This document shows positions 4,319-63,723 of a stretch of DNA of 64,000 bases, one piece after another. A model generated the notes under the pieces. It did no database searches. It had not been told where the DNA came from and worked only from the letters and a program-made list of their open reading frames with translations. The first letter of the stretch is position 1. Each line of letters opens with the position of its first letter. Both the position numbers and the translations under genes were made by a program. The stretch spans positions 111,669 to 175,668 of the forward strand of contig JAIPGN010000001.1 in NCBI GenBank assembly GCA_021735685.1, written 5' to 3'. The stretch is from Patescibacteria group bacterium (GTDB lineage: Bacteria > Patescibacteriota > Patescibacteriia > UBA2591 > UBA6264).

Positions 4319-5326
4319 ATGTTTGTTAAAAAAATAGGAATAGATTTGGGAACCACTAATGTTTTGGTTTATCTTCCTCATAGGGGGATTGTAACTAATG
4401 AACCTTCGGTGGTGGCTATTTCTACCACTGATAAAAGTATTTTGGCGGTTGGTGATGATGCTAAGGAAATGATTGGGCGAACTCCTGACACCATTATTGC
4501 TAAAAGACCTTTAAAGGATGGAGTGATTGCTGATTACAAAACCACGGAGGCGATGTTGCGTTATTTCGTGGGCAAGGCAGTGGGCCGTTTTAGTTTTTTC
4601 CGTCCAGAAGTTATGGTGGCAGTACCCGGCGGAATTACTTCTACTGAAAAAAGGGCGGTAGTGGATGCAACTATGCGAGCAGGGGCAAAAGCAGCTTACA
4701 TTATTAAAGAACCAATTGCGGCGGCTATTGGCTCTAACATTCCTATCGGTTCAGCTTCGGGTCATATGATTATTGATATTGGCGGAGGCACTACTGAGGC
4801 GGCAGTTATTTCTTTGGGTGGGATTGTAGCTTGCACTTCGGTCCGCGTGGCTGGCAATAAATTGGATGCTGCCATTGCTAGCTTTGTTCGTAAAAAATAT
4901 AATTTAGCGGTGGGTGAGAGGACGGCCGAGCAAATTAAAATTAAGATAGGTTCAGCCCTGCCTCTAGAGAAAAAGATGAAATTAGATATTAAGGGCCGAG
5001 ATATGATTTTAGGTTTGCCTCGTATTATTACAATTAACTCTGATGACATTACCGAAGCGATTCAAGATGAGTTAGACGCTATTATTACTGCAGTTAAATC
5101 AGTGCTTTATGACACCCCTCCTGAGTTGTCTGCAGATGTGATGAGTAAAGGGATGGTCCTTTCTGGAGGAAGTTCTTTGCTTAAAAATTTAGACAAGTTA
5201 TTAACTGATGCTATTGGAGTGCCAGCTTATTTATCTGAAGAACCCCTTTTATCCGTAGCTAAAGGAACAGGCATGGCTTTGGACAATTTGGAATCATATA
5301 AAAGGAGCGTATCTTCTAATAAATAG
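4319..5326 (+). CDS. mreB: rod shape-determining protein MreB (actin homologue), copy 1
   Basis: 335 aa. Carries the phosphate-1 motif 'IGIDLGTTNVLVY', the 'DIGGGTTE' motif and the adenosine motif 'SGGSSLLKNLDKLL'. Confidence 0.9.
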   Translation: MFVKKIGIDLGTTNVLVYLPHRGIVTNEPSVVAISTTDKSILAVGDDAKEMIGRTPDTIIAKRPLKDGVIADYKTTEAMLRYFVGKAVGRFSFFRPEVMVAVPGGITSTEKRAVVDATMRAGAKAAYIIKEPIAAAIGSNIPIGSASGHMIIDIGGGTTEAAVISLGGIVACTSVRVAGNKLDAAIASFVRKKYNLAVGERTAEQIKIKIGSALPLEKKMKLDIKGRDMILGLPRIITINSDDITEAIQDELDAIITAVKSVLYDTPPELSADVMSKGMVLSGGSSLLKNLDKLLTDAIGVPAYLSEEPLLSVAKGTGMALDNLESYKRSVSSNK

Positions 5327-11601: not shown

Positions 11602-12633
11602 ATGTTAAAAAAAATTTTTTCTAAAGATATTGCTTTAGATTTAGGGACAACCAATGTTAGGGTTTATGTTCGCGGTAAGGGTTTGGTGGTTAATGAGCCT
11701 ACAGTGGTCGCCATTAATACGAGAAATGATCAAATCGTAGCTATTGGGAGCAATGCTCTTAGGATGTTGGGAAAGGCGCCGAAACATATTTCCGTGATTC
11801 AGCCCTTGGTTAATGGTGTTATTTCTGATTTTGAGGTTACGGAAAAGATGTTGAGGATGATTTTTAATAAAGTTCACCATGATAGCTTTACTTTAATTCC
11901 TCGCCCACGAGTAGTAGCTTCTGTCCCTTTAGATGTTACAGAAGTAGAAAAGAAATCTTTAGAGGATGTTATTTTACAGGCTGGAGCGCGCACGGTTTTT
12001 TTGGTTGAACGGCCAGTGGCATCAGCCATTGGAGCGCGTTTGCCAGTTCAAGAATCAATTGGAAATTTAATTGTAGAACTGGGTGGAGGAATTTCAGAGA
12101 TAGCAGTTATTTCTCTTAATGGAATCGTTGCTCACAAATCATTAAAAGTGGGTGGAGAGTTATTGAGTAAAAATATTATTGATTATGTTCGGGAAAACTT
12201 TGGAGTGTTATTAGGCCAGCAAACCGCAGAAGCCGTGAAAATTAAGATTGGTTCGGCGGCTTCGGTTAGTAAATCACAGGAAATGAAAATTAAGGGTCGA
12301 GATTTAGTCAGTGGATTACCGCGCGAGGTGGTTATTACCGATACTCAAGTTCGAGAAGCGGTTCTGCCTAGTTTAAAAATTATCACGGAGGGAGTTCGAG
12401 ATACAATTGAATCTACACCGCCAGAATTGGTTTCTGATATTTATGAGAGAGGAGTCATTCTTTCTGGAGGAGCCTCTCTTTTAAAGGGATTAGATAAATT
12501 AATTAGAAAAAAAATTAATATTTCAGTTTATTTAGTTGATGATCCTTCCACGGCGGTTATCAGAGGAATGGGCTTAATTTTAGAAGATTTTGATAATTTA
12601 AAAAGCGTTATCATTCCTTCGGCTCGAGATTAA
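11602..12633 (+). CDS. MreB/Mbl-like actin homologue, copy 2
   Basis: 343 aa. Carries 'LDLGTTNVRVYV', 'ELGGGISE' and 'SGGASLLKGLDKLI'. It is a divergent paralogue of the copy at 4319. Confidence 0.85.
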   Translation: MLKKIFSKDIALDLGTTNVRVYVRGKGLVVNEPTVVAINTRNDQIVAIGSNALRMLGKAPKHISVIQPLVNGVISDFEVTEKMLRMIFNKVHHDSFTLIPRPRVVASVPLDVTEVEKKSLEDVILQAGARTVFLVERPVASAIGARLPVQESIGNLIVELGGGISEIAVISLNGIVAHKSLKVGGELLSKNIIDYVRENFGVLLGQQTAEAVKIKIGSAASVSKSQEMKIKGRDLVSGLPREVVITDTQVREAVLPSLKIITEGVRDTIESTPPELVSDIYERGVILSGGASLLKGLDKLIRKKINISVYLVDDPSTAVIRGMGLILEDFDNLKSVIIPSARD

Positions 12634-12953
12634 AAAAATATTAGTTATATTAGAAAAGCGAGTTCTGGTTAGGGGCTCGTTTTTTTAGTGGTGACAAAAA
12701 TCATCATCCTTCGTCTTCTTTTAAAGAAGCTTAAAGTTTAATAATAAATGATAAATTATGACTTTTCTCTTTGGCTGCTATTTAGAAAATAAAAAAAGGA
12801 AAATGACTTATTGGGAGGGAGCCCAAAAAGTTTCCTTATTTAATTTTATTTTTAAATTTAGGTGATAATCTTTCCTCTTTTTGATAAAGTTTATACTTTT
12901 TGAGCCCCGGTCATAAGCAAGCAAAGGGGCTTTTATCTTTTAAAAGGAATAAT

Positions 12954-13784
12954 ATGGAAAATATCATAATTAAATTTTTAATAACTGGTTTAACTGCCCT
13001 AGGGTTGACGGTTTTTCATTCCTTGATTTATGCTTTTTACCTTGAGAGCTCTTTTTTAGCCAAAGAAGAAGTTAATTTACTTAACATTTTTTATTTATTA
13101 TTTTTTGTTTTTCTGGGAAATTGGGGTAAGCGTTTTGTCGACTTTTGGGGAACAAGGTTTTCTTTCTTGCTTTCTTCATTTAGTCAAGGATTAGGATTGA
13201 TTCTTTATGCTTGGGCTTATAGCTTTCTATCTCTTTTATTAGCGGATGCTTTTTTAGCTACAGGAATAATTATTTTTTTAAGTATATTTAGGAAATGGAC
13301 TATTGATTCTTTTTCTGGATCTCCCTTAAAAGAGGAAACGGAAGGCGATCAGTTTGTTTCCGGTTTGAAGCTTTTGATTCTTTGGTCAAGCTTTCTTTGG
13401 GGACAGAAGAATTTAGTTTTGTCTTTTAGTCTTTTTAACTTAATTTATTGGATGACCATGATAGTAGTTGTCTCTTTTCAAGAAGAGAAAAAAAGACAAG
13501 AATTGAAATGGGGGTTTGAATTTAATCGGATTGTAAGAAAAAACATTCTTCTTTTTTGGCAAGCTGATATTTTTTTGTTGACAATCGGTCTCGGATTTTT
13601 GATTGCCCTTAGTTCTTATTTCGTTCAATGTTTTTCTTTTTCTTTACTTGAGATGGTTAGCAAGAAAGAATTTCCTTTGACTAAAATTCAAATTCATTCT
13701 TTAAGGGAAAAATTTTTCAGCATTGGAAAGAAAATGACTTTTTCCTATCCCCGGACCCATACGCTTTATCAAGTAGTGAGATAG
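12954..13784 (+). CDS. hypothetical polytopic membrane protein
   Basis: Hydrophobic throughout, and no family recognised. The start was placed at the ATG (MENIII...) with upstream AAAAGGAATAAT. The track's longer ORF uses a TTG start that runs through a 5' hairpin. Confidence 0.4.
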   Translation: MENIIIKFLITGLTALGLTVFHSLIYAFYLESSFLAKEEVNLLNIFYLLFFVFLGNWGKRFVDFWGTRFSFLLSSFSQGLGLILYAWAYSFLSLLLADAFLATGIIIFLSIFRKWTIDSFSGSPLKEETEGDQFVSGLKLLILWSSFLWGQKNLVLSFSLFNLIYWMTMIVVVSFQEEKKRQELKWGFEFNRIVRKNILLFWQADIFLLTIGLGFLIALSSYFVQCFSFSLLEMVSKKEFPLTKIQIHSLREKFFSIGKKMTFSYPRTHTLYQVVR

Positions 13785-19327: not shown

Positions 19328-20698
19328 ATGGACAAAAAGCAAATCTGGAATATAGTTTTGTCGGAATTAGAGCTTTTGATTTCTAAAGCTAATTTTAAGA
19401 CATGGTTGCAAAATACTTATATTTTGAGTTTGGAGAATGAGGGAAAAAAAGTAATAGTTGGAGTTCCTAATAGTTTTGCTAAAAGTTGGTTAGAAAATAA
19501 GTACCACAAGTATATTTTGGAAGCTTTGCGGGGAGCCACAGAGGAAAAGGTTAAAGAGGTGGTTTATAAAATAAATGCAGATTCAAATAAAAAAGGACAT
19601 TCAAGTAACAATATTGCTCCTCGTCCCCAAAAGAAAAAAACAGAAGAAAGCGAAGGGGCTTCAGCCAATAATCATGGTTTAAATCCTCGTTACACTTTTG
19701 AGAATTTTGTAGTAGGTGAGGGCTCAGAGTTGGCTTATGCTGCTTGTCAAGCGGTTTGCGATAATGCTGGCAAAAAATATAATCCTCTTTTTATTTACGG
19801 AGGTGTGGGATTAGGCAAAACTCATCTTTTGCAGGCTGTGGGCCATTCAATTTTAAAGAAAAGTCCTAAAAGTAAATTATTTTACACTAATGCTGAAAAA
19901 TTTACTAATGATTTTATTACTGCCATTGGAAACGGCACTATGGAAAAATTTAAAAAATTTTATCGCCAATTAAAAGTTTTTTTAATTGATGATATTCAAT
20001 TTATGACCGGCAAGGATCGAACCCAAGAAGAATTTTTTCATACTTTTAATGCTCTTTATCAAGAAGAAAGGCAAATTATTATTGCTTCTGATCGCCCCCC
20101 TAAAGAAATCCCTGCCCTCCAAGATCGTCTGACATCTCGTTTAACTTGGGGTTTAATCGCTGATATTGCTCCGCCAGGCTTGGAAACTAGAATTGCTATC
20201 TTAAAAGCTAAATGCGAAGAGAAAGAATATCCTTTAAGTGAAGAGATTCTGGGGTATTTGGCTACCCATATTCAAAGTAATGTGCGTGAATTGGAAGGAG
20301 CTCTAAATAAATTAATTGCTTATCAGGAATTTCATCAACAGCAAGAGCTGGATTTGGAAACAGTTAAGAATATATTAAGCACGCTTAATAATAGTAAAAA
20401 TAAAACAGGGTTTGTTCACCCTCGGCAATTAATGGAAGTGGTGGCTAATTTTTATGGATTAGAACTATCAGATATGATTAGTTCTTCACGAAAAAAAGAG
20501 TTTGTTCTACCTCGGCAAATAACTATGTATTTAATGAGAGAAGAGAATAAGGCTTCTTTTCCTTTTATCGGCAAAGAACTAGGGAAAAGAGATCATACTA
20601 CAGCTATGCATGCTTGTGAAAAAATTAAAAAAGCTATTGACAAAGATCCTAAATTAAAAAAAGAAATAGATTTAATTAAAGAAAGGTTATATAATTAA
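19328..20698 (+). CDS. dnaA: chromosomal replication initiator protein DnaA
   Basis: 456 aa. Shows the AAA+ Walker A 'GGVGLGKTHLLQA', sensor motifs and the C-terminal DnaA-box-binding HTH 'KELGKRDHTTAMHA'. Confidence 0.95.
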   Translation: MDKKQIWNIVLSELELLISKANFKTWLQNTYILSLENEGKKVIVGVPNSFAKSWLENKYHKYILEALRGATEEKVKEVVYKINADSNKKGHSSNNIAPRPQKKKTEESEGASANNHGLNPRYTFENFVVGEGSELAYAACQAVCDNAGKKYNPLFIYGGVGLGKTHLLQAVGHSILKKSPKSKLFYTNAEKFTNDFITAIGNGTMEKFKKFYRQLKVFLIDDIQFMTGKDRTQEEFFHTFNALYQEERQIIIASDRPPKEIPALQDRLTSRLTWGLIADIAPPGLETRIAILKAKCEEKEYPLSEEILGYLATHIQSNVRELEGALNKLIAYQEFHQQQELDLETVKNILSTLNNSKNKTGFVHPRQLMEVVANFYGLELSDMISSSRKKEFVLPRQITMYLMREENKASFPFIGKELGKRDHTTAMHACEKIKKAIDKDPKLKKEIDLIKERLYN

Positions 20699-20708
20699 TA
20701 AAAGTTTT

Positions 20709-21548
20709 TTGGTTTTTATGTACGTAATTAAGGCTTCTGGAGAAAAAGTTAAATTTAATTCTTCTAAAATTAGAAAGACTTGCTTGCGAGCTGGCGCTCC
20801 CAAAGATGTTTGTCGGAAGGTTGAGCAATTGGTAAAAGATCAGGTCCGAGAAGGAATGTCCACTCAAGAAATTTTAAAAATTACTTTGGAACATTTAGAA
20901 AAATATAGCCCTTTGACTTCAATTCGTTATGGTCTTAAAAGAGCTATTTTTGGTTTAGGTCCCACTGGGTTTGTTTTTGAAAAATTTGTAGCTTATCTTT
21001 TTCAAGCTTATGGCTTTAGCGCTTATTGTCCTCCCATCCTAAAGGGTCGTTGTGTTGAACAAGAGGTGGATGTAATTGCGATTAAAAAAAGGAAAGGGTC
21101 TCAAAAAAAATCTCAACAAAAATATTTAATCGAGTGCAAGTATCGTAATACTGCGGGCTTGAAGGTGGATCTTCAAGATGCTCTTTGTCTCTGGGCTCGA
21201 TTTAAGGATTTAGAGAAGGAAAATTTTACTCAACCTTGGTTGGTTTCTAATGCTAAATTTACTAAAGCCGCTATTCAATATGGACGTTGTCAGGGAATTA
21301 AACTATTGGGTTGGAGATATCCTTCTCGCCAAAGCCTCAATGCTTTAATTGAGAAAAAAAAGCTTTATCCGATTACAATTTTGAAAGAAGTGAGCGGGAA
21401 ATTGGCTCAAAATTTTTTTAATCAAGACGTTATTATACTTAGTCATCTGTGCTCTTCTCATATAAATAATTTGTCTTCACGAGTGGGAATTAGTTCAGGC
21501 AAAATGAAGAGAATAGTCGAAGCGGCTCAATTGATTTTAAAAAGCTAA
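20709..21548 (+). CDS. ATP-cone domain fused to Mrr-like restriction-endonuclease (PD-(D/E)xK) domain protein
   Basis: The N-terminal ~90 aa 'VIKASGEKVKFNSSKIRKTCLRAG...' follow the ATP-cone pattern (as in NrdR/NrdD). The next region 'GPTGFVFEKFVAYLFQAYGF...EVDVIAIKK...YLIECKYR...VSNAKFTKAAIQYG' matches the Mrr catalytic-core D-x(n)-E-C-K topology. Confidence 0.55.
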   Translation: MVFMYVIKASGEKVKFNSSKIRKTCLRAGAPKDVCRKVEQLVKDQVREGMSTQEILKITLEHLEKYSPLTSIRYGLKRAIFGLGPTGFVFEKFVAYLFQAYGFSAYCPPILKGRCVEQEVDVIAIKKRKGSQKKSQQKYLIECKYRNTAGLKVDLQDALCLWARFKDLEKENFTQPWLVSNAKFTKAAIQYGRCQGIKLLGWRYPSRQSLNALIEKKKLYPITILKEVSGKLAQNFFNQDVIILSHLCSSHINNLSSRVGISSGKMKRIVEAAQLILKS

Positions 21549-45632: not shown

Positions 45633-45717
45633 TGGTGCCGAAGGTGGGACTTGAACCCACAAGCCTTACGGCACATGGTCCTAAACCATGCGTGTTTACC
45701 AATTTCACCACTTCGGC
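45633..45717 (-). tRNA. tRNA-Leu (anticodon TAG), 85 nt with long variable arm, CCA encoded
   Basis: The reverse complement folds as acceptor GCCGAAG/CTTCGGC, a D-arm, anticodon stem CATGG with loop TTTAGGA, a 14-nt variable arm and T-arm GTGGG-TTCAAGT-CCCAC, then A-CCA. Confidence 0.8.
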
Positions 45718-45791
45718 CCTAAATAAATAATGTGGAGTTTTAACCTCCACATAGTATTGACTTGGGAGTTGAGCTCCTAAGTAATTAAAGA

Positions 45792-45878
45792 TGGTGCCGG
45801 AGGCGGGACTTGAACCCGCACGGACTTGCGTCCACAAGATTTTAAGTCTTGCGTGTCTACCAATTTCACCACCCCGGC
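45792..45878 (-). tRNA. tRNA-Leu (anticodon TAA), 87 nt with long variable arm, CCA encoded
   Basis: The reverse complement is GCCGGGGTGGTGAAATTGGTAGACACGCAAGA-CTTAAAA-TCTTG..GGTTCAAGTCC..CTCCGGC-A-CCA. Its D-arm is almost identical to the neighbouring tRNA-Leu. Confidence 0.8.
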
Positions 45879-45973
45879 TACTTTTTACAACTTTAATTTT
45901 AATCAGATAATCTAAAAATGTCAACATTGTCAGAAATGTTTTTTTTTGCTAAGATAATATTATTAGAGTCTTT

Positions 45974-46046
45974 GCCGGGGTAGCTCAGGGGCCAGAGCAA
46001 TAGTTTTGTAAACTATCGGTCGTGGGTTCGAATCCCACCCCCGGCT
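45974..46046 (+). tRNA. tRNA-Thr (anticodon TGT)
   Basis: GCCGGGG-TA-GCTCAGGGGCCAGAGC-A-ATAGT-TTTGTAA-ACTAT-CGGTC-GTGGGTTCGAATCCCAC-CCCCGGC-T. The cloverleaf fits. CCA is not encoded. Confidence 0.8.
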
Positions 46047-46073
46047 CTCTACTAAAAAATAAAAAATAAATTT

Positions 46074-46229
46074 ATGTCTCAAGCAAATTTGATCAAATTA
46101 GAATGCAGTGAATGTCATCGCATCAATTATTATTCTCAAAAAAATAAGAAGACTAATAAAGATAGATTAGAGCTTAAAAAGTATTGTCGTTGGTGCAAAA
46201 AACACACCTTGCATAAAGAAACTAAATAA
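46074..46229 (+). CDS. rpmG: 50S ribosomal protein L33 (zinc-ribbon form), missed by the ORF track
   Basis: Translates to [51 protein letters not shown] (51 aa). This fits the L33 pattern with CxxC...CxxC. It sits between tRNA-Thr and tRNA-Trp, a common rpmG context. Confidence 0.8.
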
Positions 46230-46241
46230 AAACAAAAAAAA

Positions 46242-46314
46242 GGGGGCGTGGTGAAGTGGTATCATAAGAGTCTCCAAAACTTTTGTCAGAGGTTCGATTC
46301 CTCTCGCCCCTGCC
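46242..46314 (+). tRNA. tRNA-Trp (anticodon CCA)
   Basis: GGGGGCG-TG-GTGAAGTGGTATCAT-AAGAG-TCTCCAAAA-CTTTT..GAGGTTCGATTCCTC-TCGCCCCT-G-CC. The anticodon loop CTCCAAA gives CCA. It closely resembles canonical bacterial tRNA-Trp. Confidence 0.8.
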
Positions 46315-51739: not shown

Positions 51740-53830
51740 ATGTCTTCAAACATCTCTAAAATCAAGAAAAGGAATAACAAGATCGTTGATTTTAATAAAA
51801 CTAAAATTGTGGAAGCTATTTATAAGGCCATTCTCGCAGTAAAAGGAGAAGATGGTAAAGATTCTAAAAAATTAGCCGATCAAGTAGTTAAAATTTTAGG
51901 AAAGCGTTTCTCTAATAAAATTCCCCACGTAGAAGATGTGCAAGACATAGTAGAGCAAGTTTTAATTCATGCCGACTTGGCTGATGTGGCTCGCGCTTAT
52001 ATTCTTTATCGAGAACAAAGACGTCAGGCTAGAGAAATTATTAATGAGAGCGACAAAAGCGTTGATTTAGTAGAAAAATATTTGTCGGAAGGAGATTGGG
52101 AGATTAAGGAAAACGCCAATATGACTTATTCTTTACAAGGATTGAATAATTATATCGCGGGTCTGGCTAGTAAAAAATATTGGTTAAATAAAATTTATCC
52201 TCAAGAAATCAGAAAGGCGGTTGAGGATGGTAATTTTCATATTCATGATTTGAGCTCTTTGAGCACATATTGCATGGGTTGGGATTTGCAAGATTTTTTG
52301 CTCAAGGGATTTACTGGAGTAGCGGGTAAAATATCATCTGGGCCGGCCAAACATTTTCGTTCTGCCCTGGGGCAAGTGGTAAACTTTTTCTACACCTTGC
52401 AAGGAGAGGCAGCTGGAGCGGAAGCCTTTTCTTCCTTTGACACTTATTTGGCTCCTTTTATTGCTTACGACAAGCTTAATTATCGACAAGTGAAGCAGGC
52501 CTTACAAGAATTTTTGTTTAATTGTAATGTTCCTACTCGAGTTGGCTTCCAAACTCCCTTTACTAATATTACTTTAGACCTCAAAGTCCCTCGCAATATG
52601 TCTAAACAACCGGTTATTATTGGAGGAGAGCTTCAAAAAAAGACTTATGGCGAGTTTCAAAAAGAAATGAACATGCTTAATCGTGCCTTTTATGAATTAA
52701 TTATGGAGGGTGATTCCAGCCAAAGAGTTTTTACTTTTCCTATTCCTACAATTAATATTACCAAGGATTTCGATTGGGATAATCCCGATTATGAGCCGAT
52801 GTGGGAAGCGACCGCTAAATATGGCATTAACTATTTTTCTAATTTTATTAATTCGGACTTAGACCCCGAAGATATCAGAAGTATGTGTTGCCGCTTGCGT
52901 CTTAATAATAAAGAGCTTCATCACCGTGGCGGCGGGCTTTTTGGAAGCGCTCCTTTGACTGGGAGCGTGGGGGTGGTCACGATTAATCTTCCTCAGATTG
53001 GATATTTAACTCAAACTAAAAAAGAATTTTTAGATCGTTTGGGACTTTTAATGGATTTAGCCAGAGAGAGTTTGGAGATCAAAAGAAAGGTTTTAGAAAA
53101 TTTTATGCAAAAAGGGCTTTATCCTTATTCTAAATTTTATTTATCCAGTATTAAAAAAATGCGAGGAACTTATTTGGCTAATCATTTTTCAACAATTGGC
53201 TTGGTGGGGATGAATGAAGCTTTATTAAACTTTAAAGGAGAAGACATTACTTCATCCAAGGGCCAAAAATTAGCTTTAGAGATTTTAGATTATATGCGTC
53301 AGCGTTTATTAAAATATCAAGAGAAGACTGGGCATATTTATAATTTAGAAGCCACCCCTGCCGAAGGAACCAGTTATCGTTTGGCCAAAATAGACAAAAA
53401 GAAATACCCAGACATTATTACTGCTGGCAGTGGGACATTTTACTATACTAATTCCAGTCAATTGCCGGTTGATTATTCGGGAGGTTTGTTTAATGCCCTG
53501 GAATTGCAAGATAAAATACAAATTAAATACACAGGAGGAACAGTTTTTCACGCCTTTTTGGGAGAGAAAATTTTTGATTCAGCAGTAGTTAAGAGTTTAA
53601 TTAAAAAAGTTTTTACTAAATTTCGTTTACCTTACTTTACCCTAAGCCCGACTTTTAGCATTTGTCCAGAACATGGTTATTTAAGCGGTGAACATTTTAC
53701 TTGCCCTCATTGTCAGGCTCGAGCGGAAGTTTATTCTCGTATTGTTGGTTATTTGCGGCCAGTGCAGCAATGGAACAAAGGTAAGCGAGAAGAGTTTGGA
53801 GAAAGAGAGACTTTTGATCCTAAATTATGA
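51740..53830 (+). CDS. nrdD: anaerobic ribonucleoside-triphosphate reductase (class III RNR)
   Basis: Shows an N-terminal ATP-cone. The C-terminus has the zinc ribbon 'CPEHGYLSGEHFTCPHC' and the glycyl-radical motif 'RIVGYLRPVQQWNKGKREE'. Confidence 0.9.
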   Translation: MSSNISKIKKRNNKIVDFNKTKIVEAIYKAILAVKGEDGKDSKKLADQVVKILGKRFSNKIPHVEDVQDIVEQVLIHADLADVARAYILYREQRRQAREIINESDKSVDLVEKYLSEGDWEIKENANMTYSLQGLNNYIAGLASKKYWLNKIYPQEIRKAVEDGNFHIHDLSSLSTYCMGWDLQDFLLKGFTGVAGKISSGPAKHFRSALGQVVNFFYTLQGEAAGAEAFSSFDTYLAPFIAYDKLNYRQVKQALQEFLFNCNVPTRVGFQTPFTNITLDLKVPRNMSKQPVIIGGELQKKTYGEFQKEMNMLNRAFYELIMEGDSSQRVFTFPIPTINITKDFDWDNPDYEPMWEATAKYGINYFSNFINSDLDPEDIRSMCCRLRLNNKELHHRGGGLFGSAPLTGSVGVVTINLPQIGYLTQTKKEFLDRLGLLMDLARESLEIKRKVLENFMQKGLYPYSKFYLSSIKKMRGTYLANHFSTIGLVGMNEALLNFKGEDITSSKGQKLALEILDYMRQRLLKYQEKTGHIYNLEATPAEGTSYRLAKIDKKKYPDIITAGSGTFYYTNSSQLPVDYSGGLFNALELQDKIQIKYTGGTVFHAFLGEKIFDSAVVKSLIKKVFTKFRLPYFTLSPTFSICPEHGYLSGEHFTCPHCQARAEVYSRIVGYLRPVQQWNKGKREEFGERETFDPKL

Positions 53831-54528
53831 TTTTTTGCGGTTGGCAAAAAGAATCTTTTAACGAATGGCCTGGTAAAATTTCTTCGGTTGTTTTTGTAAG
53901 TGGTTGTAATTTTCGTTGCCCTTTTTGTCATAATGCCGGCTTGATTTTTAGGCCAGATAATTTTCCTCAGATTAAAGAAAAAGAGGTTATTGATTATTGT
54001 AGGAAAAATAAAGATTTTTTAGACGCCCTAGCCTTGACTGGAGGAGAGCCTTTATTAAGGCCTATTTCAGAAATAAAAGATTTTGTTCAAAAAATAAAAT
54101 CTTTAGGATTGTTGGTCGCTATTGAAACTAATGGTTCCCAACCCAAGATAATTTCTGCTTTAATGCGTACCAGATTGGTTGATTATTGGGCGATGGACAT
54201 TAAGGCACCTTTAGAGGAAGACAAGTATTATTTTTCCACTGGCGTTAAAATTGACTTGAATGATATTAAGAAAAGTATTAAGATAATAATGGATTCAGCT
54301 CAAGATTATGAATTTCGGACTACGGTTGTTCCTTCTCTTTTAAAAAAAGAAGATTTAATGAAAATAGGAAAAGAAATTAAGGGAGCTCGTTGTTATTATC
54401 TTCAGCAATTTCGAAATCAAAACACCCTTGATCAATCTTGGCGAGAGATTAAGCCTTATGATTTAGAATGGTTTAAAGATGTTCAATCCAAAATTAAAGG
54501 CCCGCAAAAAATTAAAATTCGTATTTAA
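53827..54528 (+). CDS. nrdG: anaerobic ribonucleotide reductase activating protein (radical SAM)
   Basis: 'GCNFRCPFCHN' (CX3CX2C) is present. Its start overlaps the nrdD stop (ATGA). Confidence 0.85.
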   Translation: MIFCGWQKESFNEWPGKISSVVFVSGCNFRCPFCHNAGLIFRPDNFPQIKEKEVIDYCRKNKDFLDALALTGGEPLLRPISEIKDFVQKIKSLGLLVAIETNGSQPKIISALMRTRLVDYWAMDIKAPLEEDKYYFSTGVKIDLNDIKKSIKIIMDSAQDYEFRTTVVPSLLKKEDLMKIGKEIKGARCYYLQQFRNQNTLDQSWREIKPYDLEWFKDVQSKIKGPQKIKIRI

Positions 54529-59036: not shown

Positions 59037-60506
59037 ATGTCGAGGTCAAAGAAATTTTTTTATTACCTTTTTTGCTTTGGGGGAGGTATTGGCGTCGCTT
59101 CTTTTTGGAAGATTTCTCTTTTTTATTTGGGAAGTTTTTTTATAATTTTATTTTTCTTATTTTTTCTTTTAAGGAAATATAATCTTGGGCCCATTTTTTT
59201 GAGCCTTATTTTTTTAGGGGGAGGAATTTTTTATTATCAATGGCGAGCTGAGGAAGTAGACCAGAATCATATTGCTTTTTTTGCAAACCAAGAGGTTGTT
59301 TTTCAAGGAAGAATAGAGAGGGCTAGAGATTCAACAGTAAGAGGAGAGGAGGTTGTATTGGGGGAGATAAAGATGATGGGAGAAGAGAAACAAGGGCGAG
59401 TCTTACTTAACCTTCCTTTGTATTCAGATTTTCAATATCAAGATTTAGTAGAAGTAAACTGTTTTTTGCAGGGACTTTCTAGTACAGAAGATTCTTATGC
59501 TCGTTATTTAAAAGGGAAAAGAATTTTTTCTTTTTGTTTTTGGCCTAAAGTTGAATTAAAGAGCCGGCCATCTTCGCCAAATTTTTATGGTCGAATTTTG
59601 GCTATTAGAAAGAAGGCACAGCATTTTATTTTAACTAAATTTTCTGAGCCGCAAGCCAGCTTTTTGGGGGCTATTCTCTTGGGAGTCAAAAAGAGAGTTT
59701 CTTCAAAGATTAGGAATTGGTTTAGTTTGACAGGAGCTTCTCATTTATTAGCTGTTTCCGGCTTGCATATTGCTATTTTAGTTCAGATGATTGGCTTTTT
59801 TTTAATTAATTTTCTGCGGATCAAAAGAACCAAAGTTTGGTTGCCAATAAGTTTGATTGTTCTTTTTTTTATTCTTTTGACCGGAGCAGCTCCAGCCACC
59901 ATTAGGGCGGGATTAATGGGGTTGTCTTTGTTTTGGGCTCAAAAAAACGAAAGGGGCTATAATTCTTTAAATTTTTTGTTTTTAATAGGAGTAATAATGC
60001 TTCTTTTTAATCCTAATTTTTTAGTTTTTAATATAGGTTTTCAATTGTCCTTTTTGGCGGTTTTGGGAATTGGGCTTTTTTATAATTTTTTTCAAGAATT
60101 ATTTAGGAAAATTCCTGATTATCGTTTTTTGGCTGGACGTACTTTTTTGAGCTTAACTTGCAGCGCTCAGATTTTAATTTTGCCCTTGGTTCTATATTAT
60201 TTTGGAACATTTTCTTTAATTGCTCCCTTGGTTAATGTTTTTTTACTTTTAGTCATGCCTAGTTTAATGCTTTTGGGTTTTTTGTTTCTTATTGGCAATT
60301 TTCTTAATTTTTACTTGGGTCAATTATTTTTTTATCCTCTTTGGCTATTAGCTACTTATGTGATTTTAATAGTCAAAGTTAGTGCTAAAATTCCTTATTC
60401 TTCTTTTATAATCAGTAGTTTTTCAAGGATGGGAGTTTTTCTCTCTTATTTGTTCTTATTTTTATTTTATTTTTATTTACGCTCCTTCTCTTTTTTTGAA
60501 AAATGA
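59037..60506 (+). CDS. comEC: ComEC/Rec2 DNA-uptake channel, N-terminal DUF4131 plus Competence domain (separate ORF)
   Basis: 'LTGASHLLAVSGLHIAIL' is the competence-domain signature within a polytopic TM protein. It ends with an ATGA overlap to the next ORF. Confidence 0.75.
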   Translation: MSRSKKFFYYLFCFGGGIGVASFWKISLFYLGSFFIILFFLFFLLRKYNLGPIFLSLIFLGGGIFYYQWRAEEVDQNHIAFFANQEVVFQGRIERARDSTVRGEEVVLGEIKMMGEEKQGRVLLNLPLYSDFQYQDLVEVNCFLQGLSSTEDSYARYLKGKRIFSFCFWPKVELKSRPSSPNFYGRILAIRKKAQHFILTKFSEPQASFLGAILLGVKKRVSSKIRNWFSLTGASHLLAVSGLHIAILVQMIGFFLINFLRIKRTKVWLPISLIVLFFILLTGAAPATIRAGLMGLSLFWAQKNERGYNSLNFLFLIGVIMLLFNPNFLVFNIGFQLSFLAVLGIGLFYNFFQELFRKIPDYRFLAGRTFLSLTCSAQILILPLVLYYFGTFSLIAPLVNVFLLLVMPSLMLLGFLFLIGNFLNFYLGQLFFYPLWLLATYVILIVKVSAKIPYSSFIISSFSRMGVFLSYLFLFLFYFYLRSFSFFEK

Positions 60507-61390
60507 AAAAGAATCTAAATTTTAAAATTATAAATTCTTGGATTAGAATTTGCGGATTATTGCTTTTGGTATTTTTAATTATTGCCGGCTATTTTTATTT
60601 TTTTCTAACACCTCTGGAATCAGAGTTAAGAGTAATTTTTTTGGATATTGGTCAAGGAGATGCCATTTTAATTCAGACTAAAACAAAAAATATTTTAATT
60701 GACGGTGGGCCGGATCGAGAAATTATTTACAAGCTGGATCAATACATAGCTGCTCATCAAAGAAAAATAGATTTAATGATTCTTACTCATCCTGACGGAG
60801 ATCATTTGAATGGCTTGGTTGAGGTCTTGCGGCGTTGGCCAGTTGATAATTTTTTGGAAACAGGAATAAAGGGCTCCTCGCCTGCCTATCTTGATTTACA
60901 ACGATTGATCTCTGAACGAGATTTGCCAGTTTATTATTCTGTTAATTTAAAGAAAATAGTTTTGAGCCCAGACCTAGAAATGGAAATTCTTTGGCCCTTG
61001 AATTCGGGAAATAACTTGATTAAAGAAGACCCCAATTCTCTTTCTTTGGTTCTAAAATTAAGCCACCAAGATAACACTTTTCTTTTGACCGGAGATGCTG
61101 ATCATGAAGTCGAAGAAAAAATATTAGACATTTATCCTTGCCTAGAATCTTTAGTTCTTAAAGTAGGGCATCATGGCTCTAAATACTCTTCTGGTTTAAG
61201 TTTTTTGCAAAAAGTTAAGCCAACTTATGCCGTTATTTCCGTTGGGCAAGACAATAACTTTGGTCATCCTAGTTTAAGAGTTTTAGATAATTTGCAACAA
61301 GTTTCCGCTCAGGTCTTGCGTACAGATCAAAAAGGTGATATAATATTTGAAAGCAATGGACAAAATTTGAATTTAAAGACAGCAAGGTAG
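60503..61390 (+). CDS. ComEC-associated metallo-beta-lactamase-fold domain protein (C-terminal ComEC module as separate ORF)
   Basis: It has an N-terminal TM helix. MBL motifs 'LDIGQGDAILIQT', 'THPDGDHLNGL' (HxHxDH variant) and 'VGHHGSK' are present. Confidence 0.7.
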   Translation: MKKNLNFKIINSWIRICGLLLLVFLIIAGYFYFFLTPLESELRVIFLDIGQGDAILIQTKTKNILIDGGPDREIIYKLDQYIAAHQRKIDLMILTHPDGDHLNGLVEVLRRWPVDNFLETGIKGSSPAYLDLQRLISERDLPVYYSVNLKKIVLSPDLEMEILWPLNSGNNLIKEDPNSLSLVLKLSHQDNTFLLTGDADHEVEEKILDIYPCLESLVLKVGHHGSKYSSGLSFLQKVKPTYAVISVGQDNNFGHPSLRVLDNLQQVSAQVLRTDQKGDIIFESNGQNLNLKTAR

Positions 61391-62069: not shown

Positions 62070-63278
62070 ATGGCAGAAAAAGCGAAATTTGAAAGAGGTA
62101 AGACTCACGTTAATGTAGGAACCATTGGTCATGTTGATCATGGAAAAACTACTTTAACGGCGGCTATTTTAAAATGTCTAAAGGCGTCTGGAAAAACTAT
62201 TGATCGCGAAATGTCAGTTGATCAAATTGACGGAGCGCCCGAAGAAAAAGAAAGAGGAATTACTATTGCCTTGGCGCACGTAGAGTATGAGACTGATAAG
62301 CGTCACTATGCTCACATTGATTGTCCCGGGCATGCCGATTATATTAAAAATATGATCACAGGAGCCGCCCAGATGGACGGATCCATTTTAGTAATTTCCG
62401 CTACTGATGGGCCTATGCCCCAGACTCGAGAGCACATTCTTTTGTCTCGTCAGGTGGGAGTGCCGGCCATTGTTGTTTTCTTGAATAAAACTGATATGGT
62501 TGAAGACAAAGAATTAGTAGAGTTGGTCAAAGAAGAGGTGAAAGACTTGTTAAAGAAATATGAATATCCTGGCGACGAAATTCCAATCATTGAGGGGTCT
62601 GCTTTAAAGGCCTTAGAGTGTGGTTGTGGTAAAACTGATTGTCCTCATTGTGGACCAATTTTAAAATTAATTGAAGCTTTAGATGAATATATCCCAGAAC
62701 CCCAAAGAGACATAGAGCAACCTTTCTTAATGCCGGTAGAAGATATTTTTACTATTGAAGGAAGAGGAACTGTAGTTACTGGAAAGATTGATCGAGGAAA
62801 GGTGAAGTTAAATGATGAAGTAGAAATTGTTGGTTTAAAAGCAACTACTAAAACCGTAGTTACTGGAATTGAAATGTTTAGGAAATCCTTAGATGAAGGT
62901 TTGGCTGGGGACAATGCTGGTATTCTTTTAAGAGGAATTAAAAAGACTGATATAGAAAGAGGACAGGTCTTAGCTGCTCCGGGAACAGTAACTCCTCACA
63001 CGGAATTTGAAGGAAAAGTTTATATCCTTTCTAAGGAAGAAGGCGGAAGACACACCCCTTTCTTTAACGGTTACAAACCACAGTTTTATATTCGAACTAC
63101 TGATGTTACTGGTGAAGCTGATCTTCCCGAGGGAACAGAAATGGCAATGCCAGGCGATACTTTAAGCTTAAAAATTAAATTATCTAAGCCAATTGCCTTG
63201 GAAGAACAACAGAGGTTTGCTATTCGTGAAGGAAGTCGTACTGTCGGAGCAGGAGTAGTTACTAAAATTATTAAATAA
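62070..63278 (+). CDS. tuf: elongation factor Tu, with a Cys-rich insertion in domain I
   Basis: '[17 protein letters not shown]', 'DCPGHADY' and 'NKTD' G-motifs are present. '[22 protein letters not shown]' replaces the usual acidic '..EGDAEWEAKILEL..' segment. Confidence 0.95.
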
Positions 63279-63360: not shown

Positions 63361-63723
63361 ATGACCACCAAGAATCAAGGCCAAAAGAAAAAATCAGCTC
63401 AGCAAGATAAATCTGCGGATGCTCCTCGCATTCGGATTAAGGTTAGATCTTATGATCATCGAGTTATTGATCAAGCCTTAAAAGAAATTATTTCTGCAGT
63501 TAGTCGTTCTGACGCTAAAATAACCGGACCCATTTTTCTGCCCACTAGCAAGAAAAAATATACTGTTTTGCGGTCTTCTTTTGTTCATAGCCGTTCTCAA
63601 GATCAATTTGAAAAAAGAATCCACAACCGTTTGATTGATATTACTGATTTTAATCCCCAAACTTTAGAAGTTTTAAGGGGATTAAATTTACCGGCTGGAG
63701 TGGATGTGGAAATTAAAATGTAA
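63361..63723 (+). CDS. rpsJ: 30S ribosomal protein S10 with short K/Q-rich N-terminal extension
   Basis: 'RIRIKVRSYDHRVIDQALKEIISAV...TGPIFLPT...RLIDI' closely matches the S10 signature. Confidence 0.9.
   Translation: MTTKNQGQKKKSAQQDKSADAPRIRIKVRSYDHRVIDQALKEIISAVSRSDAKITGPIFLPTSKKKYTVLRSSFVHSRSQDQFEKRIHNRLIDITDFNPQTLEVLRGLNLPAGVDVEIKM

What the first reader, a model, noticed from the sequence alone, without database searches (positions are those of the whole stretch)
62070..63278. EF-Tu with a Cys4 zinc-knuckle-like insertion ([13 protein letters not shown]) in the G domain
In the loop where E. coli EF-Tu reads ..LEGDAEWEAKILEL.., this protein has ..[23 protein letters not shown]... That gives four cysteines plus a histidine in a CxC-x4-CxHC arrangement, typical of a small metal-binding knuckle. 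Zinc-binding variants of universally conserved translation proteins can be lineage markers and may be redox or metal sensitive.
Basis: seen in the sequence. Interest (0 to 1): 0.5.

Follow-up and report, generated by a model that had tools for sequence, protein, structure and literature searches.

The report
Cysteine-knuckle form of elongation factor Tu
This Patescibacteria genome encodes a normal translation factor EF-Tu with a conserved four-cysteine loop, probably a metal-binding site, that occurs in EF-Tu of at least 13 bacterial phyla, is missing from every EF-Tu structure solved so far, and appears undescribed.

Summary
ORF 62070-63278 (+) is a bona fide EF-Tu (TIGR00485, 684 bits). It carries C184-G-C186-G-K-T-D-C191-P-H-C194 (window 62619-62651) just after the G5 motif, between the last two G-domain helices. 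It is not an assembly error: 118 of the 120 closest database homologues keep all four Cys. It is not a lineage marker either. These include cultured Moorella, Sulfobacillus, Caloramator, Desulforudis and Thermosulfurimonas. Within Patescibacteria, Cys-less forms fall in about seven separate groups. No PDB EF-Tu has the motif, and ten full-text literature searches found no description. His193 is not conserved. Best reading: a structural Zn(Cys)4 staple, giving EF-Tu Cys-containing and Cys-less forms, as in adenylate kinase lids and zinc-ribbon ribosomal proteins. Metal binding is inferred, not shown. The AlphaFold confidence for the loop was no higher than in a Cys-less control. This is a new variant of a known kind, of moderate interest.

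The parts
62070..63278 (+). tuf gene, EF-Tu, 402 aa
   Evidence: ORF and translation. NCBIfam TIGR00485 EF-Tu equivalog scores 683.7 bits against a cut-off of 522.4. Pfam finds GTP_EFTU, D2 and D3. 100% identical to NCBI 'elongation factor Tu [Patescibacteria group bacterium]'. The model matches GTP-form EF-Tu structures at TM 0.88.
62100..62696 (+). G domain (residues 11-209) with intact G1 GHVDHGKT (20-27), G3 DCPGH (84-88), G4 NKTD (139-142) and G5 SAL (177-179)
   Evidence: Pfam GTP_EFTU covers residues 11-209. The motif residues are read from the translation and are invariant in alignment A1.
62598..62606 (+). G5 motif S177-A178-L179 (guanine-base contact), five residues upstream of the first Cys
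   Evidence: Translation. G176 and S177 are invariant in A1. The role of G5 comes from established EF-Tu knowledge.
62619..62651 (+). Cys4 knuckle C184-G-C186-G-K-T-D-C191-P-H-C194
   Evidence: Conserved in 118/120 Patescibacteria homologues and 115/120 Moorella-type homologues. Found at the same site in 114 species genomes. In the model, C184 ends helix 178-184, residues 185-194 form a loop, and C194 precedes helix 195-207.
62652..62690 (+). last helix of the G domain (residues 195-207), which the knuckle caps
   Evidence: DSSP on the AlphaFold2 model; block pLDDT is 97.
62175..62186 (+). helix A residues C36-L-K-A39, which co-vary with the Cys4 state
   Evidence: C36 occurs in 102/117 Cys4 forms and 0/31 Cys-less CPR forms. 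Position 39 is small (A/S/G) in Cys4 forms and mostly Leu in Cys-less forms. This is not general Cys avoidance, because Cys-less forms carry Cys at 69 and 141. Spatial contact with the knuckle is inferred only.
63361..63723 (+). rpsJ (ribosomal protein S10), start of the S10 operon directly downstream of tuf
   Evidence: Pfam Ribosomal_S10. The same order occurs in relative L121, where the operon continues to a 61-aa zinc-ribbon-type S14 (CWRCG..CRIC).

Best explanation
The gene is the organism's ordinary, functional EF-Tu. Its loop between the short helix after the G5 guanine-binding motif and the last G-domain helix has been built into an 11-residue Cys4 knuckle (C184, C186, C191, C194). This most likely chelates one Zn2+ tetrahedrally. 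The metal would act as a structural staple. It would tie the end of helix 178-184 to the start of helix 195-207 and pack against the end of helix A, stiffening the scaffold that holds G5. I do not think it is a catalytic or RNA-binding element. EF-Tu therefore exists in a Cys-containing (C+) and a Cys-less (C-) form. The C+ form is old and widespread, mostly but not only in anaerobes and thermophiles. It has been lost repeatedly, with compensating hydrophobic changes in helix A. Shown: identity as EF-Tu, position of the motif, its conservation, its phylogenetic spread and the repeated losses. Inferred: metal binding, zinc as the metal, the stabilising role and the contact with helix A.
For: The protein is EF-Tu with all G motifs intact. 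All four Cys are kept in 118/120 closest homologues and 115/120 relatives of Moorella EF-Tu. Neither search required the motif. The same motif sits at the same site in 114 of 120 pattern hits, on lineage-typical EF-Tu backbones from at least 13 phylum-level groups. The flanks differ by lineage, for example RVSALK..SIKGRGTVPTGR in Dehalococcoidia, TITGRGTV in Bacillota and [12 protein letters not shown] in CPR. Identity to the window protein outside the motif is only 64-87%. The second half is a C-P-x-C-G-type knuckle. The first half, CxCGx3C, has the same spacing as the ROK-kinase GH..CxCGxxxC motif, which turned up as an off-target hit and has solved homologues 2QM1 and 3VOV. That it ligates zinc is my own knowledge. 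Graded degenerate forms exist: 3 Cys plus Glu (P0219), 2 Cys (P0121, P0122), 1 Cys (P0090) and none. C- forms fall in 7 separate groups in a tree built without the motif region. Helix A positions 36 and 39 switch together with the Cys state. A close relative uses the zinc-ribbon form of S14. The window encodes the anaerobic ribonucleotide reductase NrdD/NrdG, so the cell is a reducing, zinc-using setting. Adenylate kinase gives a precedent for a structural Zn(Cys)4 site that alternates with a metal-free form (PMC11526920).
Against: No metal was or could be measured. AlphaFold2 coordinates were not exposed, so the S-S geometry was not checked. The high loop confidence (pLDDT 96-97) is matched by a Cys-less control of the same length (93 and 97), so it is not evidence for a metal site. 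Only four residues separate the two half-sites, which is tighter than most zinc ribbons. The C- forms work without the site, so whatever it adds is dispensable. The 7-loss count rests on an unsupported neighbour-joining tree and on a sample biased toward C+ sequences. The genome scan forced the motif and was cut at 120 rows, so frequencies among bacteria are unknown.
Confidence: 0.6

Rival explanations
1. Redox or zinc-responsive switch. The Zn(Cys)4 site is a sensor as well as a staple. Oxidants or zinc starvation would strip the metal and loosen the G5 scaffold. That would reversibly shut down the most abundant translation factor in oxygen-sensitive organisms.
For: Most carriers named in record titles are anaerobes: Dehalococcoidia, Moorella, Desulfo- taxa, Omnitrophota, Scalindua and CPR. 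The window organism has NrdD/NrdG. Zn(Cys)4 sites react quickly with oxidants (PMC6021785, listed). Cysteine-based redox control of EF-Tu has a precedent in cyanobacteria (PDB 8YLY/8YM3, 'EF-Tu in regulating photoinhibition'). The CxC...CxxC layout resembles the Hsp33 redox-switch zinc centre (own knowledge).
Against: Carriers also include taxa that I recall as largely aerobic (own knowledge): Sulfobacillus, Thermoleophilia, Leptospiraceae and Gemmatimonadota. Nothing in the sequence separates a sensor from a passive staple. No linked regulator or repair gene lies next to tuf.
Confidence: 0.15
2. The site binds iron (a rubredoxin-like Fe(Cys)4 centre) or another thiophilic metal rather than zinc, possibly with electron-transfer or iron-sensing meaning.
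For: Four Cys with a CxxCG knuckle also describes rubredoxin-type sites. The carriers are iron-rich anaerobes. Cys4 sites are often promiscuous between Zn, Fe and Co (own knowledge, for example Desulfovibrio adenylate kinase).
Against: The first half-site is CxC, not the CxxCG knuckle of rubredoxins. The same CxCGx3C spacing occurs in the ROK zinc motif. No aromatic core typical of rubredoxin is present. A one-electron centre on a GTPase loop has no obvious partner.
Confidence: 0.1
3. No metal is bound. The cysteines form disulfides or only shape a loop that serves as a lineage-specific docking surface for another protein.
For: Metal binding is unproven. AlphaFold models the loop confidently with or without Cys. 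The loop is a known indel hot-spot with many solutions.
Against: Simultaneous conservation of exactly four Cys with fixed spacing across at least 13 phyla is not expected for a mere spacer. When one Cys goes, the others decay too. Stable disulfides are unlikely in the cytoplasm of strict anaerobes. No conserved partner gene is nearby.
Confidence: 0.1
4. Sequencing or assembly artefact, or a pseudogene.
For: None found.
Against: The ORF is intact. An identical protein exists in NCBI, and hundreds of independent assemblies carry the motif.
Confidence: 0.01

Closest known systems
Canonical bacterial EF-Tu (E. coli 1EFC/1DG1; Thermus 1EXM/1TTT/1EFT)
   Same: Orthologue with 63-71% identity. It has the same three domains, the same G1-G5 motifs and the same tuf-rpsJ synteny. 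The model superposes on GTP-form structures at TM 0.88.
   Different: The loop after G5 carries four Cys. E. coli has a 5-residue shorter Cys-free loop (GDAEWEAK). Thermus has a 5-residue longer Cys-free loop. None of the 59 distinct PDB sequences matching this segment has the motif.
Thermus/Thermotoga-type 'thermophile' insertion in the same EF-Tu loop
   Same: Same insertion point between the G5 helix and the last G-domain helix. It is presumed to have a stabilising role (own knowledge of the Thermus EF-Tu structure papers).
   Different: It is longer, has no cysteines and no metal. Stabilisation comes from packing and charge rather than a chelated ion.
Adenylate kinase LID: Zn(Cys)4 lids versus hydrogen-bond lids
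   Same: A housekeeping nucleotide-binding enzyme whose surface loop is either a structural Cys4 zinc site or a metal-free equivalent. Both forms are active and are spread across bacteria (PMC11526920). A Cys3 plus acidic variant occurs in both systems (EF-Tu P0219; Cys3Asp in Bacillus Adk is own knowledge).
   Different: Unrelated fold element. The Adk lid is a mobile catalytic lid, whereas the EF-Tu loop is not known to move or to touch substrate.
C+/C- zinc-ribbon ribosomal proteins (S14, L31, L33, L36, S18)
   Same: Translation proteins with Cys-containing and Cys-less forms and recurrent loss of the Cys set. A close relative has the C+ S14. Zinc paralogues are discussed in PMC9825181 and PMC13343924.
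   Different: Those often occur as co-resident paralogue pairs switched by Zur. Where two tuf copies were seen in one genome, both were C+: L006/L026, and Moorella sp. ACPs, M. humiferrea and Zhaonella pairs. No Zur link was seen.
ROK-family sugar kinase/repressor zinc motif GH..CxCGxxxC
   Same: Near-identical peptide (CGCGKMDC in L005, CGCGKREC in L035) and identical C-x-C-G-x3-C spacing, in a family with solved structures (2QM1, 3VOV). There the three Cys plus one His hold a structural zinc (own knowledge).
   Different: Not homologous. The fourth ligand there is an upstream His, whereas here it is a downstream Cys in a CxxC turn.
Zinc knuckle in the G domain of archaeal/eukaryotic initiation factor aIF2/eIF2 gamma
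   Same: A paralogous translational GTPase of the EF-Tu superfamily (TIGR03680 hit at 122 bits) with a Cys4 knuckle in domain I (own knowledge; not verified with the tools).
   Different: It is inserted at a different place in the G domain, near switch 1, and in a different protein family and domain of life.
Cysteine-based redox control of cyanobacterial EF-Tu (PDB 8YLY/8YM3)
   Same: EF-Tu activity linked to cysteine chemistry (entry titles).
   Different: It uses the single conserved Cys of the DCPGH motif and no metal site. The loop in 8YLY is Cys-free (alignment).

Membership tests
EF-Tu (TIGR00485 equivalog) | Whole-protein score above the curated equivalog cut-off | tested here: met
   683.7 bits against a cut-off of 522.4. 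EF-1alpha, SelB and aIF2-gamma models all score below their cut-offs.
EF-Tu (TIGR00485 equivalog) | Three-domain architecture: G domain, domain II, domain III | tested here: met
   Pfam GTP_EFTU covers 11-209, D2 covers 233-302 and D3 covers 307-400. Foldseek TM is 0.88 to Thermus EF-Tu-GTP structures.
EF-Tu (TIGR00485 equivalog) | Intact G1-G5 nucleotide motifs and the catalytic His of DCPGH | tested here: met
   GHVDHGKT 20-27, DCPGH 84-88, NKTD 139-142 and SAL 177-179 are in the translation. They are invariant in A1.
EF-Tu (TIGR00485 equivalog) | Genomic position next to the S10 ribosomal protein operon | tested here: met
   rpsJ lies at 63361-63723. The full S10/spc operon follows tuf in relative L121.
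Structural Zn(Cys)4 knuckle | Four invariant Cys ligands with fixed spacing | tested here: met
   C184, C186, C191 and C194 are kept in 118/120 and 115/120 homologues.
Structural Zn(Cys)4 knuckle | Knuckle signature C-(P)-x-C-G | tested here: met
   The second half-site is C-P-H-C-G here. Position 195 is G in 71, K in 28 and S in 12 of 115 across phyla. The first half-site is CxC, as in ROK proteins.
Structural Zn(Cys)4 knuckle | Stoichiometric zinc and tetrahedral S4 geometry | not testable with these tools
   There is no metal assay and model coordinates are not exposed. pLDDT does not discriminate.
C+/C- dimorphic translation proteins (ribosomal-protein type) | Orthologues with and without the Cys set, with recurrent loss | tested here: met
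   31 Cys-less or Cys-poor CPR EF-Tu sequences fall in 7 groups among Cys4 forms.
C+/C- dimorphic translation proteins (ribosomal-protein type) | Co-resident C+ and C- paralogues, the C- copy induced under zinc limitation | tested here: not met
   In every genome where two tuf copies were seen, both are Cys4 (L006/L026; P0157/158, P0159/160, P0200/201). Whole genomes and Zur sites were not examined.
Rubredoxin-like Fe(Cys)4 | Two CxxCG knuckles on a small beta-sheet with an aromatic core | tested here: not met
   The first half-site is CxC, the whole site spans 11 residues and the model shows no beta-sheet there.
aIF2/eIF2-gamma zinc knuckle | Cys4 knuckle inserted near switch 1 of the G domain | not tested
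   The position here is after G5. The aIF2-gamma position is recalled from memory only.

The most novel reading that the evidence does not exclude
The Cys4 form may be the ancestral bacterial EF-Tu and may bind zinc stoichiometrically in vivo. Because EF-Tu is usually the most abundant cytoplasmic protein, it would then be the largest single zinc pool in these cells. It would also be a redox- and zinc-sensitive throttle on translation. Its repeated loss would record adaptation to oxygen or zinc scarcity.
Probability: 0.15. Interest if true: 0.75.

Novelty: new variant of a known kind. Interest (0 to 1): 0.5.

Why it matters
EF-Tu is one of the most studied and most abundant proteins in biology. 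Yet all 59 distinct solved sequences lack this site. They come from E. coli, Thermus, Pseudomonas, Mycobacterium, Mycoplasma, Synechococcus, mitochondria and reconstructed ancestors.

If the knuckle binds zinc one-to-one, organisms with this form would commit a large share of their zinc quota to one protein. That bears on zinc economy, on the oxygen sensitivity of translation in anaerobes, and on the accuracy of ancestral EF-Tu reconstructions used to infer ancient temperatures. The reconstructed ancestors in the PDB have a Cys-free loop of almost the same length.

The question is directly testable. Cultured carriers exist, including Neomoorella thermoacetica, Thermanaeromonas toyohensis, Sulfobacillus harzensis, Thermosediminibacter oceani and Thermosulfurimonas dismutans.

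If the site is only a passive staple, it is a tidy addition to the list of housekeeping proteins with metal-bound and metal-free forms, and not more than that.

Tried and rejected
1. AlphaFold2 confidence as evidence for a metal site. The Cys4 model gave pLDDT 96-97 in the loop. A Cys-less control of the same length, P0090 modelled on a Cys-less alignment, gave 93 and 97. I rejected this as evidence. Coordinates are not returned, so S-S distances could not be measured.

2. Looking up the window protein's own contig failed twice, with nothing on record. I used the 96%-identical P0002 locus instead.

3. Literature. Eight looked for a description of a Cys4 or zinc EF-Tu, and looked for analogues. 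I also checked two papers that mention EF-Tu and zinc. Nothing was found. One table lists a single Zn-containing EF-Tu PDB entry out of 175, with no such site described. A DOI lookup for the ROK-family motif paper failed. The aIF2-gamma zinc knuckle was not confirmed in the review I read. Both points stay marked as own knowledge.

4. Sequencing error: rejected.

5. A CPR-specific lineage marker: rejected.

6. Histidine as a ligand: rejected because it is not conserved.

7. General cysteine purging as the reason C36 disappears with the knuckle: rejected, because Cys-less forms gain Cys at positions 69 and 141.

8. A zinc-sparing paralogue pair: not seen in the few genomes with two visible copies.

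9. A protein comparison with wrong coordinates failed and was replaced by the script-based alignment.

Full report
**Observation**

The ORF at 62070..63278 (+) encodes a 402-aa protein that reads ...[36 protein letters not shown].... The cysteines are C184, C186, C191 and C194, at window 62619-62651. A degenerate DNA pattern for CGCGKx[DE]CxxC matches once in the window, with none expected in shuffles.

The protein is EF-Tu by every test:
- The NCBIfam equivalog TIGR00485 scores 683.7 bits against a cut-off of 522.4.
- The motifs [17 protein letters not shown] and SAL are intact.
- S10 lies directly downstream.
- An AlphaFold2 model (mean pLDDT 82.7) superposes on GTP-form Thermus EF-Tu at TM 0.88.
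- The sequence is identical to an NCBI entry from a Patescibacteria group bacterium.

**Position of the motif**

The motif begins five residues after the G5 motif S177-A-L. In the model, C184 ends a short helix (178-184), residues 185-194 are loop, and C194 precedes the last G-domain helix (195-207). Relative to E. coli-type EF-Tu the loop is 5 residues longer. Relative to Thermus it is 5 shorter. The site is therefore a known length-variable loop rather than a unique insertion.

**Is it real and conserved?**

Among the 120 best database homologues (77-100% identity), 118 keep all four Cys, with consensus E-C-G-C-G-K-x-[DE]-C-x-x-C-G-P. The exceptions are informative:
- P0090 has the same loop length but only one Cys.
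- P0062 has three Cys.
- P0067 has a different C-x2-C...C-x2-C layout.

**Distribution**

I scanned one genome per GTDB species with the degenerate pattern. Translation showed that 114 of the 120 hits lie in EF-Tu at exactly this site. By record title they break down as follows:
- about 32 Chloroflexota, mostly Dehalococcoidia
- about 26 'Deltaproteobacteria', including Desulfobacterota, Binatus and Deferrimicrobium
- 16 Bacillota, including Moorella mulderi, Sulfobacillus harzensis, Caloramator and Desulforudis
- 7 Actinomycetota, mainly Thermoleophilia
- 6 Patescibacteria
- about 6 Omnitrophota
- 4 Planctomycetota, including Scalindua
- smaller numbers of Nitrospirota, Aquificota, Thermodesulfobacteriota (Thermosulfurimonas), Gemmatimonadota, Leptospiraceae, Armatimonadota and Ratteibacteria

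The flanking residues are lineage-typical. Identity to the window protein outside the motif is 64-87%. This argues against recent transfer of one allele.

A protein search with the Moorella mulderi EF-Tu did not require the motif. It found the motif in 115 of 120 relatives. These include cultured Neomoorella thermoacetica, M. glycerini, M. humiferrea, Thermanaeromonas toyohensis, Syntrophothermus lipocalidus, Zhaonella formicivorans and Thermosediminibacter oceani. In that group the Lys after the second Cys varies, so my DNA pattern under-samples the family. The motif is not a marker of one lineage.

**Loss of the site**

A search seeded with the Cys-poor P0090 brought in about 30 Patescibacteria-type EF-Tu sequences without the site. 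Typical loops are ALEAKSADDEAAKPILEL, 2-6 residues shorter. Intermediates with two Cys also appeared.

I built a neighbour-joining tree from columns outside residues 180-200. The Cys-less forms fall in seven separate groups among Cys4 forms. Two caveats apply: there are no support values, and the sample is biased toward Cys4.

Two helix A positions change in step with the site. C36 is present in 102/117 Cys4 forms and 0/31 Cys-less forms. Position 39 is small in Cys4 forms and mostly Leu in Cys-less forms. This is not general Cys avoidance, because the Cys-less forms carry other Cys. I infer that helix A packs against the knuckle, and that Leu fills the space when the knuckle is gone. This was not checked in three dimensions.

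**What it most likely is**

Four invariant Cys in 11 residues best fit a mononuclear tetrathiolate metal site. The second pair forms a C-P-x-C-G turn at a helix start.

Two off-target hits of the DNA pattern are ROK-family glucokinases (Pfam ROK; PDB relatives 2QM1 and 3VOV). Their GH..CxCGxxxC motif has the same C-x-C-G-x3-C spacing. That this motif binds a structural zinc is my own knowledge.

The closest functional analogy is adenylate kinase, whose lid is either a Cys4 zinc site or a hydrogen-bond network (PMC11526920). The zinc-ribbon and Cys-less forms of ribosomal proteins are a second analogy. A relative 96% identical in EF-Tu, with the same gene order, has the 61-aa zinc-ribbon S14.

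A Cys3-plus-Glu variant (CGCGSRDEEWC; P0219, P0227, P0240) occurs in independent assemblies, as expected for a metal site that tolerates one carboxylate ligand.

I therefore favour a structural zinc staple that stiffens the helix pair supporting G5 (confidence 0.6).

**What is not shown**

Metal binding, the identity of the metal and any effect on stability or nucleotide binding are all inferred. The loop's high model confidence is not evidence, because the Cys-less control scores equally well. The rivals are a redox or zinc-responsive switch (0.15), an iron or other metal centre (0.1), and a metal-free loop or docking surface (0.1). An artefact is excluded.

Unlike ribosomal proteins, I saw no pairing of Cys4 and Cys-less copies in one genome. 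Where two tuf copies were visible, both were Cys4.

**Novelty**

None of the distinct EF-Tu sequences in the PDB carries the motif. The best match to the loop segment is a reconstructed ancestor with a Cys-free loop one residue shorter. The library lacks most subscription journals, so an older mention cannot be excluded.

I rate this a new variant of a known kind. It is an ordinary EF-Tu with a widespread, apparently unstudied putative metal site. Interest is moderate (0.5). It is not mechanistically startling, but it is unexpected in so heavily studied a protein, it is testable in cultured organisms, and it could matter for zinc budgets and the oxygen sensitivity of translation.

**Context**

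The window is a housekeeping stretch of a Patescibacteria genome. It contains dnaA, several aminoacyl-tRNA synthetases, RRF, a release factor, GlmS, ComEC, NDK, tuf and S10. It also encodes the anaerobic ribonucleotide reductase NrdD with its activase, which is consistent with an anaerobic lifestyle.

Noticed in passing
window 20709-21548 (+): Directly after dnaA (19328-20698) lies a 279-aa protein combining an ATP-cone, an Mrr-type restriction-endonuclease catalytic domain and an AF1548-like C-terminal domain. This is an unusual fusion of a nucleotide-sensing domain with a nuclease.
   Followed up: no
window 59037-61390 (+); L121 7131-9321: ComEC appears split into two overlapping ORFs: a DUF4131 plus Competence channel part (59037-60506) and a separate metallo-beta-lactamase part (60503-61390). 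The same split is seen in the 96%-related genome.
   Followed up: partly
window 51740-54528 (+): The anaerobic ribonucleotide reductase NrdD (with an ATP-cone) and its radical-SAM activase are present, indicating an anaerobic lifestyle.
   Followed up: partly
window 4319-5326 and 11602-12633 (+): There are two MreB/Mbl paralogues within 7 kb (441 and 403 bits to PF06723) in a small-genome organism.
   Followed up: no
window 12900-13784 (+): This 294-aa ORF has no Pfam match at E <= 1e-5.
   Followed up: no
window 45633-46314: A cluster of four tRNA genes on both strands: Leu-tag, Leu-taa, Thr-tgt and Trp-cca.
   Followed up: no
window 62175-62186 (EF-Tu residues 36-39): Helix A residues C36 and A39 switch to V/I and L whenever the Cys4 knuckle is absent in Patescibacteria EF-Tu. 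C36 also occurs in Moorella and some Dehalococcoidia and Saccharibacteria Cys4 forms (11 of 62 non-CPR loci).
   Followed up: partly
L005 and L035 (off-target pattern hits): ROK-family glucokinases carry CGCGKMDCLEC and CGCGKRECVEC in their GH..CxCGxxxC motif (Pfam ROK 214 bits; PDB 2QM1, 3VOV). The first eight residues have the same peptide pattern as the EF-Tu knuckle.
   Followed up: partly
L054 3876-3908 (+): A Verrucomicrobiia protein with a RAMP-like GSSLKGKMRSE motif carries CGCGKEDCLIC. It may be a CRISPR-associated RAMP protein with a small Cys knuckle.
   Followed up: no
P0219, P0227, P0240 (Syntrophomonadaceae-type EF-Tu): In this variant the third Cys is replaced by Glu (CGCGSRDEEWC). 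It is seen in several independent assemblies and may be a Cys3-carboxylate version of the site.
   Followed up: partly
P0067: This Patescibacteria EF-Tu has a re-spaced site, C-L-Q-C-x5-C-P-D-C (two CxxC pairs), in place of CxC...CxxC.
   Followed up: no
L027 and L040: In these tuf genes the reading frame breaks just after the Cys motif. Both come from 'contig_'-named MAG assemblies (MFD isolates). These are probably assembly indel errors rather than pseudogenes.
   Followed up: no
P0168 (508 aa), P0173 (514 aa): Two over-long EF-Tu-like entries among Moorella relatives lack the motif. They may be gene-call fusions or chimeric contigs.
   Followed up: no
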